The position numbers are program-made. A DNA stretch of 64,000 nucleotides. It comes from Dendrobates tinctorius (lineage: Eukaryota). The stretch's first letter is position 1. Each line of letters begins with the position of its first letter. The DNA lies in contig NW_027361788.1 of assembly GCF_039654945.1 (NCBI RefSeq), positions 5,208,001 to 5,272,000 of the forward strand. Direction: 5' to 3'. Of the stretch, positions 37,901-61,900 are shown piece by piece.

Positions 37901-40900
37901 GTGAGGGGACCATACATACCAGGAAACGGGGGGTGATGATGAGCATACATACCAGGATTGGGGTGTGAGAGGACCATGCATACCAAGAAAGGGGGGTGAA
38001 GGGACCATGCATACCAGGATAGGGGGGTGAGCAGACCATGCATACCAGGATTGGGGGTGAGAGGACCATGCATACGAGGACTGGGGGGTGAGGGGACCAT
38101 GCATACCCCAAAAGGAGGGTAAGAGGACCATGCATACCAGGATTGGGGGGTGAGGGGACCATGCATATCAGGAAAGGGGGGTGAGGGTACCATGCATACC
38201 AAGGTAGGGGGGGTGAGGAGACCATGCATACCAGGAAAGGGGGGTGAGGATACCATGCATACCAGGATTGGGGGGTGAGGGGACTGTACATACCAGGAAA
38301 CGGGGGTGACAGTGAGCATACATACCAGGATTGGGGTGTGAGAGGACCATGCATACCAGCAAAGGGGGGTGAGGGGACCATGCATACCAAGAAAGGGGGT
38401 GAGGGGACCATACATACCAGTATAGGGTGGTGAGGGGACCATGCATACCAGGATTGGGGGGTGAGAGGACAATGCATACCAGGATTGGGGGGTGAGGGGA
38501 CCATGCATACCCCGAAAGGGGGGTAAGAGTACCATGCATACCAGGAAAGAGAGGTGAGAGGACCATGCATTCCAGGATTGGGGGGTCAGGGGACCATGCA
38601 TAGCAGGATAGGGGGTTGAGGGGTAGCATGCACATCAGGATTGGGGGTGAGAGAACCATGTGAAAAAAGAAGGTATCCAGCTCCGGAGATAAAATCCAAA
38701 ATCTTTATTGAAACAAATGAAAAGGTAATAAGCTGCTTGATAACCAGTGTATACTGGAGGAAGGAATGTCCTAGATAACTGGACGCGTTTCGAACACGTG
38801 TAGTGCTCTTAGTCCTCAGTGAGAGAGCCATACATATCAGGATTGGGGGTAAGGACCATACATATCAGGATTGGGGGGTGCATTATTGCATTATTATTAA
38901 ATCTTCAAAAATAAACTGCATATATATTCTAGAATAAAGAAAAAGAAAAAGCCAGCTCACCAGTAAACTCTTGCAGATTCACGGAGCTCCGTGCAGACCA
39001 ACGTCAGGAAATGGAAAAGAAGATTAGCTCCAGCTGCGTAAAAATTCTTCTTTATTATAAATCGTTAAAATGACATATGATGAAACTCTCCTTATAACCA
39101 ACCAGAGGAAGATGTAACAGAGGCTACGCGTTTCGACCTTCATGGTCTTTATCAAAGCCATACCCAGTCCCCAGCCTAGCTCGGCTATATATATGAGACT
39201 AACCAAGAGAAATCGGTATATACATCACATGATTCACAGGAAAGGTCCTGTGTATAAAAAACAAACATCACACACAATAATAACAATAATAGTAATAAAA
39301 CATTAATGGTAGTGTAACATTAAATCATGTCTCTTGTTTAAACCACTTGGAGGTCTTGTATTTAATTGATAAATCCAAAACGCCTCTCGAGTGAGAAGGC
39401 GCCGCCTGGTGTCTCACCCCCGAGTTAAAGGACTCACACGTTCAATTCCTTGTACTATGAAATGAGAGGTACTTCTGCCATGACATTCAATAAAATGTTT
39501 AGAAGCCGCTGATGTATTCCTTTCAAAATTATTAATATTCGTAATATCGTACAAATGCTCTCTGATTCATACCTTTAATTGCCTTGTAGTACATCAGTCA
39601 TAAGACAAATTGCAGGCGTCACAACTTATTTTATACACTATGTTTTTTGAGTTGCAATTGATATAATTATTAATTTTGAATCTTTGAGTGTTGTTATTAT
39701 TATTAAATTCCTTTGATATCAGTACATGTTTATACATTTTGCAACACGTGGTGCCACATTTGTAAAAACCTCTATTGGTAAGCCAATTATCCCTAGGTTT
39801 TTTACCGGTAGATGAAAACATACTTGGTGATAACATATTACCCAGTGAAGGTGCCCTGCGGGATACTACATTTATGCCAGAAGTTAAAATTCTTGCTAAT
39901 TGGTCATCTTCATATAATATAGGTAAGTATTTGTTAAGAATATTTTTAATTCCCACAAATTGCGGACTATATTAAAAACAAATATATGGCTTCTTCTCTA
40001 TATCCTCATTTTTCCTCCGATCTATTGAGGAAAGCATGATTAATTCCTCCTGTTTTTTTGCCTCTCCTATATGTTGTGCTCTATTGAGTGTCCAATTGGG
40101 ATACCAACGATTCTTCAATTTATTAGTAACACATGCTAATTCATCCATCAAGGCATCATTTGAACTGCAGTTACGTTTAATTCGAGTTTATTCACCCACT
40201 GGAATTGATTTTATTGTTCGTTTATTTTGACTATTTGATGCATGTAAGATGGTGTTCCCACTACGTGGTTTATGATGCGTTTTTGTACAAATAAATTCAC
40301 CATCTATACCCCTTAAATCTAAATCCAAAAAAGAAATATTCTTGGGATCACTTTTATGTGTGAATTTAATATTATATTCATTGGAGTTCAAGTACTCCAC
40401 AAAATCTGGTAAGGCAGACATATCTCCACCCCAAATAATTAAGGTATCATCGATATATCTACCATACCAGATCAGGCTCTCGATATAAGGATTAGATGCA
40501 GAATATATACTCCAATTCCCAAAAGGACATAACGAGAAAGGTACGAATCAGAGAGCATTTGTACGATATTACGAATATTAAAAATTATTATTTTGAAAGG
40601 AATACGTCAGCGGTTTCTAAACATTTTATTGAATGTCATGACTGAAGTATCTCTTATTTCAGAGTACAAGGAATTTAATGTGTGAGTCCTTTAACTCGGG
40701 GGGTGAGACACCAGGCGGCGCCTTCTCACTCGAGAGGCGTTTTGGATTTATCAATTAAATACAAGACCTCCAAGTGGTTTAAACAAGAGACATGATTTAA
40801 TGTTACACTACCATTAATGTTTTTATTATTATTATTGTTATTATTGTGTATGATGTTTGTTTTTTATACACAGGACCTTTCCTGTGAATCATGTGATGTA

Positions 40901-58900: not shown

Positions 58901-61900
58901 TCTCTTCTTCCAGTCCCTCCCGGAGCTCTTCCTCTTTCAGTCTCTTCCTCCTTCAGTCTTTCCCTCCACTGAACTCCTTCTCCTAGACTGGCTTCCTTCT
59001 GGAACTCTCTCTGCCTTTTTATTCCCCTCCCTGGGAATTCCCTTCCAGAGTCCCTGTAACTCCGCCCACCATGACTATGCGGTTTCCTAGTCTTAAGCAG
59101 CTGTTAAGCCCTTTTCTCCCTGCTCTCTGCCTCCATCTTGTGGCCAAACCTTAGTACTGCACCATCTCCTTTTCCTGCTGTTCTTGGTCTCCCCCTAGTG
59201 GTCAAAACCCAGTACTTCACCATCTTTCACTGTCTCTAGCTGTTTCCCCACATGTATATACAGATTCACTTCAAGTATATTTACGGCACATTTCACATTC
59301 ACTGATCTTCCTTCAGACAGGTCGATAGGTCAGTCCACTTCCCTACATGAGTACCAGCTGTCATCTGGACTTTTACCAGAAAGTAACCTATTCTTTAAAA
59401 TCGAGCTTTGTGTAAACTGTATTTTTAAAAAAATGTTGGCAAGCGTTTGTTTAATTATTTTTTCCCATATTACAATCTCTAATAAAAAGAAATAATTAGA
59501 ACTTTTGCAATTTTCATACGGTTTTTGATATTTTGCTCAAAATAGCTTTATTATTGTCTTGAGCCTTTTTTTGCACTCTTTAGTGGAAAGAGCAACATGC
59601 TCTGCTGAAGTGTTCTACAATATTTTTGGCTGCACATTTTAATCAGTTATAAGTGAGTTGTCTTTACAGTAGTATTAAAGTGGTTTTCTCATGTGCCTAT
59701 CTTCAGGAGCGCACCACTCCACGGCCTCCTGGCTTCTACTTCCTTTTTTTTCTGTCATTGTCCAGCTGTTTTGTTTAACTTCCTTTGATTAATAATAGAA
59801 AACAGGCTTTTTTCAAGCATAAATGTTGCAAAAGGCTCTCATAAATGTTCTGAGCTTTCCCATTGACTCATATTGTAAAGTACAGAGCGTCTTCCAAGCA
59901 GAAAACTCCAGAAAAATGGTCGGGTCAATTCTTTTAATCGCCGATTTTAGATGCACTAGTTTCTACTGCATATCAGATAATATTCAGGTTTATGGGTGCG
60001 CAAAAATAATATTTGGATGCCATACGGAGATACAGTAAAGCATCTGTTCTTCATGGATACACTGCAATTCTGTAATATAGGAAACTGTAAATGACTAATG
60101 GCTGCAGAAAAAAATCATCAGACTTTTCTGGATAAAACTCTGAATGATTGTGCACCTACATTTTTGGTGCTTTTTTGCAGTCTTAACTCCAGTAATAGAC
60201 GATTCGATACCACTTATTGCAGCTGACGGTGTAGTTGTGTAGGTAGGGTAACCGACTGGGGGGGGTGACCCACTTCTTGCCGCAGACAAACACGAGACTG
60301 AGACAGAATTTGTATTCAACAGGTCCGCTTTTATTGGCCGTCTTTCTGACGACCACCTGAATTCACCACAGGAATTTCACACTTCTCTTGTATGCAAATA
60401 AAGTCCGTGGAGCCTCATTTAAGAGTCTCAAACACGGGACTAGCCAGATCTTCCTCCAGGGAAGGACCCAGCCAAGGAGTGGCTCCTTTCGGAAACCACC
60501 ATTACCACCATATTAAGTGCCCCTTTATGTCAATATCCAGCTCTTTACGAGTTTGCAGATATGACAAGGGAAATACCAAGGCCAGGAATCCATCCACAGA
60601 CATGTTTCGGGGTATTGCCCCTCATCAGTGTGGAGTAGCATTCTGGCTAGGTGGGAGCAATGCCTAGTAGACCAACATCACAAAACAATCACTGACCTCA
60701 GGGAGACCAGTCAAAGAATACACTGTGGCAGCCAGCAAAGGCGCTCAATCAGTGAAATCCTAGGTGCAATGCTCCCTGGGAAATACAAATATGCAAATAA
60801 AGTCCATGGAGCCTCATTTAAGAGTCTCAAACACGTGTTTCACTGATTGAGCGCCTTTGCCGGCTGCCACAGTGTTTTCTTTGACTGGTCTCCCTGAGGT
60901 CAGTGATTGTTTTGTGACACTTCTCTTGTACACAGACCCGGGTACCTTCACTTCTTTATTACTATCATCATGGCGATCTTCGTGGCTTTTCTCACTGTGG
61001 CTGCCCTAGGCCCATCCACCACAGCGCTTTACCAATCTAAGTACGCCGTCCGTTTGGTACCCCAAGACTGTCTTCGTCTGCGGCTACTGTCCTCTGGGCC
61101 TCCCCCCGTGACCATCTCAACTGTCAGTCCCCTCCGGAGCCTTTCTACTGTCTCTTTCTCCTCAGCCGAACTTCCTCTCTACTGTGCTTCTGTCGCTGAC
61201 TGAACCTTCCAGAACCTTCCCTCAGCCTTTTATACTTCCAGTTCTGGTAACTCCGCCCACCATCACCTGACCGTTTGTCTGACCAATGGCAGTTATTCAG
61301 TCCCACTCTTACACTCTCCACTGCCCTCTAATGGTCAAACTATAATACAGCACCCTTTTCTCTTTATCTCAGCGGTTTCACACCTACACTGCGCTACACC
61401 TCTGCCTCTCACTACAGGCAGGTCTGTCCGTCAGTCCAACTTCCCTACAGTTGTGTCATCTTTTCTCTGTTAGGGCTGATAAATTTGGGGCAGGGAGTGT
61501 GCACGGCAACGTCGTGGCTCGTGCACTCTTACAGCAGCAATACAGTTGTATACATGAGCCCTAAGCTTGATCAGGCTGAGTTCTTGGCACAGTCAACAAG
61601 AAAATGTTTGTTTTTCTTCTACCTTTGTAGGTTTTTAATTTCCCTTGCAGAATACTGTGGCTCTCCTGAAGAAGTCAATCCAACTTCGAAACGTGTGAAG
61701 AATAAACCGCATGAACCCATATTACTCTTTCTTTGTTTCTCAGTTTCCTCATCGGAAGGACGAACTGTCAACCTCATTCTCCCACCAATTGTTCAGTACA
61801 ATGGGATTCACATTCTGTGGATGCTGCAGCAGCTGACCCATTTTGACAAAAGCCTGGGATGGGTGAAACGTCTGGATTTCTGTGCACTGGAATAAATAGC

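What the first reader, a model, noticed from the sequence alone, without database searches (positions are those of the whole stretch)
38923..60930. One insertion signature links Penelope, the retrozyme-like unit and a fold-back element
Seen: three unrelated sequences (38937-41107, 57804-58261, 60393-60916) each consist of a body plus an inverted duplicate of part of the body. Each is flanked by an AT-rich TSD of 14, 13 or 14 bp. One encodes Penelope RT/GIY-YIG remnants. Known: Penelope-like elements carry hammerheads and often show inverted pseudo-LTRs, and they are proposed helpers for retrozymes. Inference: a helper/parasite system in which Penelope enzymes integrate all three through a template-switch or fold-back step.
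Basis: partly seen in the sequence, partly recalled or inferred. Interest (0 to 1): 0.65.

Follow-up and report, generated by a model that had tools for sequence, protein, structure and literature searches.

The report
Three retro-insertions with Penelope-type footprints
Three unrelated mobile-element copies in a transposon-rich vertebrate region all carry the inverted-copy footprint known for Penelope-like retrotransposons, which fits one enzyme having inserted all three, though only one copy of each family was available.

Summary
E1 (38937-41107), E2 (57804-58261) and E3 (60393-60916) each consist of a body plus an inverted copy of part of that body. Exact 14, 13 and 14 bp target duplications abut them. 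Paralogous empty sites inside the window show the target once for E1 and E3.

- **E1** is a 5'-truncated, stop-ridden Penelope-like element (PLE). It keeps the C-terminal half of a reverse transcriptase (RT) plus GIY-YIG endonuclease ORF.
- **E3**, not E2, carries the hammerhead ribozyme (HHR). It is 1.11 copies of a 399-bp non-coding unit, so it looks like a retrozyme.
- **E2** is a plain fold-back with no hammerhead and no coding signal.

The three share no sequence. Their arm identities are indistinguishable (97.2, 96.9 and 97.5%).

An inverted 5' copy plus a one-sided "tail" is the published PLE insertion architecture. PLEs are already the proposed helpers of animal retrozymes.

The mechanism best backed by published biochemistry is cleavage of both target strands and priming from both, at internal RNA sites. 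Fold-back self-priming is not excluded. E2's link to PLEs rests on the footprint alone.

The parts
38923..38936 (.). E1 target-site duplication, left copy (14 bp)
   Evidence: Exact repeat of 41108-41121. The paralog 50174-50267 has this target once.
38937..39013 (-). E1 one-sided 'tail' (77 bp): the 3' end of the element in sense orientation, absent from the inverted copy
   Evidence: The arm alignment stops at 39014.
39014..39576 (-). E1 3' region: GIY-YIG C-terminal part plus 3' non-coding region. This is the arm that is duplicated in inverted form.
   Evidence: 547 of 563 bases identical to the reverse complement of 40537-41107. P0002 matches P0009 residues 731-812.
39303..40547 (-). E1 ORF remnant: RT from the YIDD motif onward, linker, and GIY-YIG endonuclease. 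It has in-frame stops and one frameshift near 39567-39593.
   Evidence: phmmer gave 4800 hits at E<=1e-3 and 66 at E<=1e-30. The only PLE hits in the window fall here.
39120..39159 (-). E1 hammerhead-like motif, degenerate: the core reads UUGAUAA instead of CUGAUGA. A second copy lies in the inverted arm at about 40962-41001 (+).
   Evidence: Read by eye and folded. No Rfam match.
40537..41107 (+). E1 inverted 5' copy of the 3' region
   Evidence: tblastn finds the GIY-YIG C-terminus again on the + strand at 40701-40805.
41108..41121 (.). E1 target-site duplication, right copy
57791..57803 (.). E2 target-site duplication, left copy (13 bp)
   Evidence: Exact repeat of 58262-58274.
57804..57996 (+). 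E2 inverted copy (left arm)
   Evidence: 186 of 192 bases identical to the reverse complement of 58017-58209.
57997..58016 (+). E2 loop between the arms (20 nt)
58017..58209 (+). E2 body (right arm). The sense strand is inferred to be + from the position of the tail.
   Evidence: The orientation is an inference.
58210..58261 (+). E2 one-sided tail (52 bp)
   Evidence: Its first 11 nt are 8 of 11 complementary to the end of the target duplication (counted by eye).
58262..58274 (.). E2 target-site duplication, right copy
60379..60392 (.). E3 target-site duplication, left copy (14 bp)
   Evidence: Exact repeat of 60917-60930.
60393..60835 (-). E3 body: 1.11 copies of a 399-bp non-coding unit. The 44-bp direct repeat is 60393-60436 = 60792-60835.
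   Evidence: The unit RNA folds with z = -2.09.
60583..60634 (-). E3 type I minimal hammerhead: helix I of 6 bp, CUGAUGA core, helix II of 4 bp, GAAA, a 2-bp helix III, and GUC as the cleavage triplet
   Evidence: This is the only CTGATGA..CGAAAC match in the window, at 60604-60628 (-), against 0.05 expected. Fold. No Rfam hit.
60836..60837 (.). E3 2-nt filler at the inversion junction. The junction forms a 12-bp palindrome.
60838..60916 (+). E3 inverted copy (79 bp) of 60679-60757
   Evidence: 77 of 79 bases identical.
60917..60930 (.). E3 target-site duplication, right copy
50174..50267 (-). Paralogous empty site for E1. Both flanks are contiguous and the target is present once.
   Evidence: (88% and 91% identity) and alignment A1.
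58585..58952 (+). Diverged paralog of the E3 host repeat without E3
   Evidence: (72-73% identity) and alignment A2.

Best explanation
All three are old, dead retro-insertions made by target-primed reverse transcription of the Penelope type.

**Proposed steps**
1. A PLE protein encoded elsewhere in the genome nicks the two strands of a mostly AT-rich target 13-14 bp apart with its GIY-YIG endonuclease.
2. [quoted passage not shown]
3. The longer cDNA becomes the body. The shorter cDNA, made from the opposite strand, becomes the inverted 5' copy.
4. The stretch between the two start sites becomes the one-sided tail.
5. Filling in the stagger gives the 13-14 bp duplication.

**The three elements**
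- E1 is a 5'-truncated autonomous-type PLE copy.
- E3 is a hammerhead-bearing, non-coding, retrozyme-like derivative copied from a multimeric or circular RNA.
- E2 is a short non-coding RNA of unknown origin, copied in trans.

**Shown here:** the anatomy, the duplications, the empty sites, E1's PLE identity and E3's hammerhead.
**Inferred:** that the same enzyme class made E2 and E3, and the two-strand priming itself.
For: - **Anatomy and duplications:**
- **Empty sites:**
- **E1 identity:** it matches residues 419-812 of an RVT_1 plus GIY-YIG protein.
- **E3 hammerhead:**
- **Same topology in all three.** In sense orientation each reads inverted copy, spacer, body. Arm identities of 97.2, 96.9 and 97.5% are indistinguishable (chi-square p = 0.96).
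- **Literature on architecture.** PLE insertions often have an inverted 5'-truncated copy and a tail at one end only (passages of PMC8557442; PMC3846280; PMC2377424).
- **Literature on biochemistry.** A purified anole PLE protein cleaves and extends both strands, prefers AT-rich DNA and starts RT at two internal sites. The tail is the stretch between those sites (main text of PMC11167929).
- **E1 layout resembles that element.** An ATG sits in the hammerhead loop, and the arm end lies about 130 nt into the putative next ORF. The anole element starts at 111-118 nt (my coordinates).
- **Similar outer ends.** The two outer ends of E2 share an 11-of-13 motif (p = 0.007) and those of E1 share 7 of 7 (p = 0.054). 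All six ends are T-rich, 44 of 72 bases. This is expected if both ends are RT start sites.
- **No rival machinery visible.** There is no poly(A), no terminal inverted repeat reaching both ends, and no tRNA-like head.
Against: - There is one copy per family, so start-site reuse cannot be tested.
- The tails are 77 and 52 bp, against the published 30-40 bp. E3 has no tail in that sense, because its inverted piece copies an internal segment 286 bp from the 3' end.
- Published PLE duplications that I saw are 8-10 bp, in a rotifer. I found no vertebrate figure.
- E2 and E3 share no sequence or terminal structure with E1.
- The two ends of E3 show no shared motif (p = 0.78).
- E2's tight 20-nt loop is what hairpin self-priming predicts.
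- The E3 target is not AT-rich in its surroundings.
- E1's hammerhead is degenerate, and Rfam finds no hammerhead anywhere in the window.
Confidence: 0.55

Rival explanations
1. The enzyme is still a PLE, but the inverted copy arises by snap-back. The first-strand cDNA folds on itself, or switches template to itself, and is copied back towards its 5' end. It stops short of that end, which leaves the tail.
For: - E2 is an almost perfect hairpin with a 20-nt loop.
- The E3 junction forms a 12-bp palindrome with a 2-nt filler.
- Self-priming was proposed for PLEs on the basis of palindromes at inverted junctions (passage of PMC3846280).
Against: - The spacers are 960 nt in E1 and 80 nt in E3, which are not tight hairpins.
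- Snap-back gives no reason for the outer end of the inverted arm to resemble the true 3' end, as it does in E2.
- Snap-back predicts arms identical at insertion with evenly spread later changes. E1's mismatches cluster in the inner part: 10 of 163 positions against 6 of 400 in the outer part (p = 0.005).
- In-vitro data show direct priming from both strands.
Confidence: 0.25
2. E2, and perhaps E3, were inserted by a different non-LTR (LINE) reverse transcriptase through twin priming or template jumping. On this view the 13-14 bp duplications match E1 by coincidence.
For: - Duplications of this length are within the usual range for L1-type insertions (recalled knowledge, not tested here).
- A LINE RT remnant lies in the window at 41675-42640 (-), with RVT_1 at E = 3.8e-12.
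- E2 has no PLE-specific sequence feature.
Against: - None of the three has a poly(A) or microsatellite 3' end.
- Classical twin priming inverts the 5' part without duplicating retained sequence (recalled). Here the inverted piece duplicates sequence that is also present in direct form.
- E3 carries a PLE-type hammerhead.
- The three arm divergences are the same.
Confidence: 0.13
3. E2 is not a retro-insertion. It would be a fold-back or MITE-type DNA transposon, or a replication-based palindromic duplication that happens to lie between short repeats.
For: It is a long perfect-type palindrome with no coding capacity and no second copy or empty site in the window.
Against: - The palindrome does not reach the right-hand duplication. 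A 52-bp unpaired tail lies between them, so there are no terminal inverted repeats at both ends.
- I do not know of a 13-bp duplication for any DNA-transposon superfamily (recalled).
- The left-hand duplication abuts the arm end exactly, and a repeat of that length occurred in only 2.8% of random placements.
Confidence: 0.05

Closest known systems
Canonical endonuclease-positive Penelope-like elements (Penelope/Poseidon/Neptune type), for example the anole element studied in PMC11167929
   Same: - E1 has RT followed by a C-terminal GIY-YIG endonuclease.
- It is 5'-truncated, with an adjacent inverted 5' copy, a one-sided tail and a target duplication in AT-rich DNA.
- A hammerhead-like motif with an ATG in its loop lies about 110-190 nt upstream of the element's 3' ends.
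   Different: - The tail is 77 bp, not 30-40 bp.
- The hammerhead core has two changes at catalytic positions.
- No direct pseudo-LTR is present in this truncated copy.
- The duplication is 14 bp, against 8-10 bp reported for rotifer copies.
- The clade within PLEs was not resolved.
Animal non-LTR retrozymes (PMC7229834; bioRxiv 10.64898/2026.07.22.740005)
   Same: - E3 is non-coding and has a 399-bp unit, within the reported range of 51-972 bp.
- It is more than one unit long and carries a type I hammerhead with a weak helix III, as in amphibian and PLE motifs.
- Its unit RNA folds better than 99 of 100 shuffles.
- It lies beside a PLE remnant.
   Different: - It has only one hammerhead, so this copy cannot release a circle.
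- It carries an inverted 79-bp 5' piece and a 14-bp duplication. The passages I read do not describe these features for retrozymes.
L1 5' inversions by twin priming
   Same: The inverted segment is at the 5' end, the duplication is of LINE-like length, and two primers are implied.
   Different: - The inverted segment here duplicates sequence that is also kept in direct orientation.
- There is no poly(A).
- The priming sites are internal and do not match the target.

Membership tests
Penelope-like element (E1) | PLE-type reverse transcriptase fused to a C-terminal GIY-YIG endonuclease | tested here: met
   P0001 gave 4800 hits at E<=1e-3. Of 10 hits scanned, 4 carry both RVT_1 and GIY-YIG (P0009, P0022, P0093, P0005), 3 carry RVT_1 only and 3 carry neither. 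E1 aligns to P0009 residues 419-719 and 731-812. Pfam on the E1 pieces themselves gave no significant hit.
Penelope-like element (E1) | Inverted 5'-truncated copy next to the element, and a tail at one end only | tested here: met
   Arms are 97.2% identical, with a 77-bp tail on one side only. The tail is longer than the published 30-40 bp.
Penelope-like element (E1) | Direct pseudo-LTR from partial tandem insertion | tested here: not met
   No direct repeat of E1 sequence exists in the window. The copy is 5'-truncated, so the feature may simply be missing.
Penelope-like element (E1) | Hammerhead ribozyme in the non-coding terminal region | tested here: inconclusive
   The motif has helix II and GAAA, but its core reads UUGAUAA in both arms. 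Rfam gave no match.
Penelope-like element (E1) | Target-site duplication at an AT-rich site | tested here: met
   14 bp at 86% AT, with an empty-site paralog.
Non-LTR retrozyme (E3) | Type I hammerhead with conserved core | tested here: met
   The core pattern matches once in the window, against 0.05 expected. Helices I and II appear in the centroid fold. Rfam found nothing. Cleavage activity cannot be tested here.
Non-LTR retrozyme (E3) | Tandem copies of a short non-coding unit, with at least two hammerheads | tested here: not met
   There are 1.11 units and one hammerhead. This is a monomer-type copy. No PLE protein trace was found.
Non-LTR retrozyme (E3) | Expression as a circular RNA | not testable with these tools
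   No transcript data were available.
PLE-dependent non-autonomous element (E2) | 3' end or hammerhead shared with an autonomous PLE | tested here: not met
   E2 shows no similarity to E1 or E3 and has no hammerhead core. Only E1 was available as a PLE reference.
PLE-dependent non-autonomous element (E2) | PLE insertion footprint: inverted 5' copy, one-sided tail, duplication | tested here: met
PLE-dependent non-autonomous element (E2) | A multi-copy family with a constant 3' end and variable 5' truncation | not testable with these tools
   There is no second copy in the window, and no eukaryotic genome collection was on hand.
MITE or fold-back DNA transposon (E2) | Terminal inverted repeats that reach both ends next to a short duplication | tested here: not met
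   A 52-bp unpaired tail separates the palindrome from the right-hand duplication, and the duplication is 13 bp.
L1-type twin-priming inversion (all three) | Poly(A) 3' end, and inversion without duplication of retained sequence | tested here: not met
   There are no A-runs at the 3' ends. The inverted parts duplicate retained sequence.

The most novel reading that the evidence does not exclude
The footprint consists of an inverted 5' copy, a one-sided tail and a 13-14 bp duplication. It may be a diagnostic signature of PLE-mediated integration in this genome.

If so, it marks not only hammerhead-bearing retrozyme-like units (E3) but also a class of hammerhead-less, non-coding passengers (E2). 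That would be the first structural evidence, as opposed to co-occurrence evidence, that PLE enzymes mobilise retrozymes and other RNAs in trans. It would also imply that both target strands prime cDNA in vivo.
Probability: 0.3. Interest if true: 0.55.

Novelty: new member of a known kind. Interest (0 to 1): 0.35.

Why it matters
The helper of animal retrozymes has been inferred from shared hammerhead type, co-occurrence and pseudo-LTR similarity. In the passages I read, the insertion footprint of retrozymes is not compared with that of PLEs.

If the footprint seen here holds genome-wide, it gives a simple test that needs only sequence. It would show who mobilises retrozymes, and it would flag hammerhead-less passengers that current searches miss. 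It would also be in-vivo support for the two-strand priming seen in vitro.

As it stands, with three single copies, the finding is a tidy example of known PLE behaviour.

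Tried and rejected
- **Rfam.** At gathering threshold the whole window gave 0 matches. E-value mode on 38800-41300 and 57500-61100 gave no hammerhead family. The only matches were microRNA-like hits, which reflect the hairpins.
- **Pfam on E1.** The five ORF pieces and the two read-throughs gave nothing significant.
- **Word-indexed protein search.** The 119-aa RT piece, searched against longer proteins, gave 0 hits.
- **Cluster names for the best hits.** The PLE clade and host taxon therefore stayed unresolved.
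- **Mutual similarity of the three elements.** None was found.
- **Protein-level similarity.** E1's 3' region, E2 and E3 were compared with 150 PLE-related proteins. One hit appeared at E = 0.89, which counts as none.
- **Shared terminal RNA structure.** The z-scores were +1.22, +0.37 and -1.84, so none is shared.
- **tRNA-like heads.** None was found in the window.
- **Raw list of isolated direct repeats of 12 bp or more.** It had 223 rows dominated by satellites. Local shuffles gave 7.6 pairs of 13 bp or more, so repeat length alone is not evidence.
- **ATGCAAAT octamer in E2 and E3.** There were 10 in the window against 4.7 expected, and 4 of 100 shuffles reached 10, so this was treated as chance.
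- **Nick-site motif.** I compared the six inferred nick sites by eye and saw no convincing consensus.
- **LINE remnant at 41675-42640 as a control.** It sits inside a satellite, so its duplication could not be read.

Full report
**Setting**

The window has no N and is a transposon-rich stretch of an animal genome. It holds the following.
- Chromodomain Ty3/Gypsy elements, with integrase, chromo, RNase H, RVT_1 and gag domains.
- Tc1/Sleeping-Beauty-type transposases flanked by inverted repeats.
- A LINE RT remnant.
- Several satellites.

It also holds a Penelope-like element (PLE). A 2026 preprint found no PLEs in its 6 mammalian and 4 avian genomes. I therefore do not take the contig for human.

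**Observation**

- **E1 (38937-41107).** It lies between 14-bp copies at 38923-38936 and 41108-41121. Segment 39014-39576 recurs inverted at 41107-40537 (547 of 563 aligned bases identical, 8 gap columns). The 77 bp at 38937-39013 are not in the inverted copy.
- **E2 (57804-58261).** It lies between 13-bp copies at 57791-57803 and 58262-58274. It is a hairpin with arms 57804-57996 and 58017-58209 (186 of 192 identical), a 20-nt loop and a 52-bp unpaired tail.
- **E3 (60393-60916).** It lies between 14-bp copies at 60379-60392 and 60917-60930. It consists of 443 bp that begin and end with the same 44 bp (unit 399 bp), then a 2-nt filler, then a 79-bp inverted copy of 60679-60757 (77 of 79 identical).

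**Is it more than chance?**

- Short direct repeats alone are not rare. Local shuffles give about 7.6 pairs of 13 bp or more within 8 kb. What counts is exact abutment to an independently defined inverted duplication.
- Among 25 BLAST rows of inverted pairs within 6 kb, only E1 and E3 had abutting repeats of 13 bp or more. The rest had 8 bp or less.
- E2 failed that automatic pass because BLAST ran the palindrome 11 bp into the duplication. With the aligned arm ends, the 13-bp repeat is found.
- Random placements in the real window reach 13 bp or more in 168 of 6000 cases, mostly in satellites.
- The window contains paralogs of the host repeats. The two flanks of E1 are contiguous at 50174-50267 (minus strand), with the target present once.
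- The flanks of E3 match 58585-58952 at 72-73% identity without E3.
- No paralog exists for E2.

**What the elements are**

*E1.*
- Its sense strand is the minus strand. One frame from 40547 to 39594, read through two internal stops as X (plus the terminal stop), gives P0001. A second frame, after a frameshift, gives P0002. I kept the two frames apart and did not join them.
- P0001 finds 4800 proteins at E<=1e-3 and 66 at E<=1e-30 among 1.84 billion representatives.
- Of 10 hits scanned with Pfam, 4 carry RVT_1 followed by a C-terminal GIY-YIG domain, 3 carry RVT_1 only and 3 carry neither.
- P0001 aligns to residues 419-719, and P0002 to residues 731-812, of the 814-aa protein P0009.
- E1 is therefore the C-terminal half of a canonical endonuclease-bearing PLE, followed by about 366 bp of non-coding sequence.
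- PLE protein similarity occurs nowhere else in the window (28 long PLE-related proteins by tblastn).
- The non-coding part holds a hammerhead-like motif, but its core has two changes in both arms. Rfam does not see it.

*E3.*
- It carries the window's only match to the hammerhead core pattern, on the minus strand at 60604-60628 (0.05 expected).
- Around that core lie a 6-bp helix I, a 4-bp helix II, a 2-bp helix III and a GUC cleavage triplet. This is the minimal type I form described for PLEs and amphibian retrozymes (passages of PMC7761336).
- With a 399-bp non-coding unit present 1.11 times, E3 looks like a monomer-type copy of a non-LTR retrozyme.
- It has a single hammerhead, so it could not itself release a circle.

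*E2.*
- It has no hammerhead core (0 of 11 relaxed matches in the window fall in it).
- It has no protein trace, no tRNA-like head and no unusual RNA stability (z = -0.15).

**What the three have in common**

- They share no sequence and no terminal structure.
- In sense orientation each reads: duplication, inverted copy of a downstream segment, spacer, that segment, remaining 3' part, duplication.
- The spacers are 960, 20 and 80 nt.
- The 3' parts beyond the copied segment are 77, 52 and 286 nt.
- Arm identities of 97.2, 96.9 and 97.5% do not differ (chi-square p = 0.96). This suggests similar ages.
- The duplications are 86, 77 and 64% AT, against 55.8% for the window.

**Comparison with what is known**

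- The adjacent inverted 5'-truncated copy and the extension present at one end only are standard descriptions of PLE insertions (passages of PMC8557442; PMC3846280; PMC2377424; PMC8969392).
- I read the main text of PMC11167929 in full. It reports that a purified anole PLE protein cleaves and extends both target strands and prefers AT-rich DNA.
- The same paper reports that reverse transcription starts at two internal sites 111-118 nt into the ORF. The genomic tail is the stretch between those sites.
- E1 fits this layout. An ATG lies in the hammerhead loop. The arm end lies about 130 nt and the tail end about 207 nt downstream of that ATG (coordinates).
- PLEs are the proposed helpers of animal retrozymes on three grounds: hammerhead type, tandem organisation and co-occurrence (PMC7229834), plus pseudo-LTR similarity (2026 preprint).
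- In those two texts "inverted" and "tail" do not occur in connection with retrozymes. My four literature searches turned up no paper comparing the footprints. This is not proof of absence, and supplements were closed.

**Mechanism**

I favour two-strand priming. Staggered nicks 13-14 bp apart would each prime a cDNA at an internal site, and the shorter product becomes the inverted copy.

*Window evidence leaning this way (weak).*
- The two outer ends of E2 share 11 of 13 bases (p = 0.007). Those of E1 share 7 of 7 (p = 0.054). Those of E3 share nothing (p = 0.78). All six ends are T-rich, 44 of 72 bases.
- E1's arm mismatches cluster in the inner 163 bp (10, against 6 in the outer 400; p = 0.005). 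This is not expected if one arm was copied from the other.
- On a multimeric template the two E3 arms would map to neighbouring, non-overlapping stretches. This is an inference.

*Evidence for the fold-back rival.*
- E2's tight hairpin and the palindromic junction of E3 suit self-priming. That mechanism has also been proposed for PLEs.

Single copies cannot decide between the two.

**Limits**

- The tails are longer than the published 30-40 bp.
- The only published PLE duplication lengths I saw are 8-10 bp, in a rotifer.
- E2's assignment rests on the footprint alone.
- Cluster names were unavailable, so the PLE clade and the host taxon are unresolved.

**Verdict**

The PLE footprint and the PLE-retrozyme link are already known. 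The modest new point is that a retrozyme-like unit and a hammerhead-less fold-back show the same footprint, duplication length and age as a neighbouring PLE copy.

Noticed in passing
window 50174-50267 (-) and 58585-58952 (+): Paralogous copies of the host repeats into which E1 and E3 inserted. They serve as in-window empty sites. The host repeat of E1 is tied to 31-bp and 21-23-bp satellites (37370-38660, 41145-41317, 48349-49657).
   Followed up: partly
window 39414-39576 versus 39014-39413: Mismatches between the E1 arms cluster in the inner part: 10 of 163 positions against 6 of 400 in the outer part (Fisher p = 0.005). Possible causes are two different template RNAs, error-prone synthesis near the junction, or gene conversion of the outer part.
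   Followed up: partly
window 57793-57803 versus 58210-58220: The last 11 nt of the E2 target duplication are 8 of 11 complementary to the first 11 nt of the tail (9 counting G-U). This would fit annealing of the nicked target to the RNA at the internal start site. The equivalent comparisons in E1 and E3 are weak. The significance is marginal.
   Followed up: partly
window 57893-57900, 58114-58121, 60392-60399, 60791-60798: The octamer ATGCAAAT occurs in both E2 and E3, twice each because of their internal repeats. The window has 10 against 4.7 expected. This is probably chance.
   Followed up: yes
window 41675-42640 (-): A 5'-truncated LINE remnant (RVT_1 E = 3.8e-12) lies in the 31-bp satellite next to E1 and ends in an AT-rich microsatellite near 41325. 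It has no inverted copy. Its duplication cannot be read inside the satellite.
   Followed up: partly
window 23165-29739 and 43497-47764 (-): Chromodomain-bearing Ty3/Gypsy retrotransposon copies with gag, RVT_1, RNase H, integrase and chromo domains. The first region appears to be a partial tandem or nested pair with nearly identical gag-pol starts.
   Followed up: no
window 31938-33557 and 33555-35188: Two adjacent Tc1/Sleeping-Beauty-type transposon copies with terminal inverted repeats of about 215 bp (98% and 87% identity). The first has an uninterrupted 341-aa stop-to-stop frame with the HTH and DDE_3 domains.
   Followed up: no
window 62043-63522: A long 22-bp satellite array of about 67 copies, GC-rich.
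   Followed up: no
window 60588/60589 and 39124/39125: The inferred hammerhead cleavage sites lie at similar distances from the 3' ends of the elements: 196 nt in E3 and 188 nt in E1. This may reflect a common layout or coincidence.
   Followed up: no
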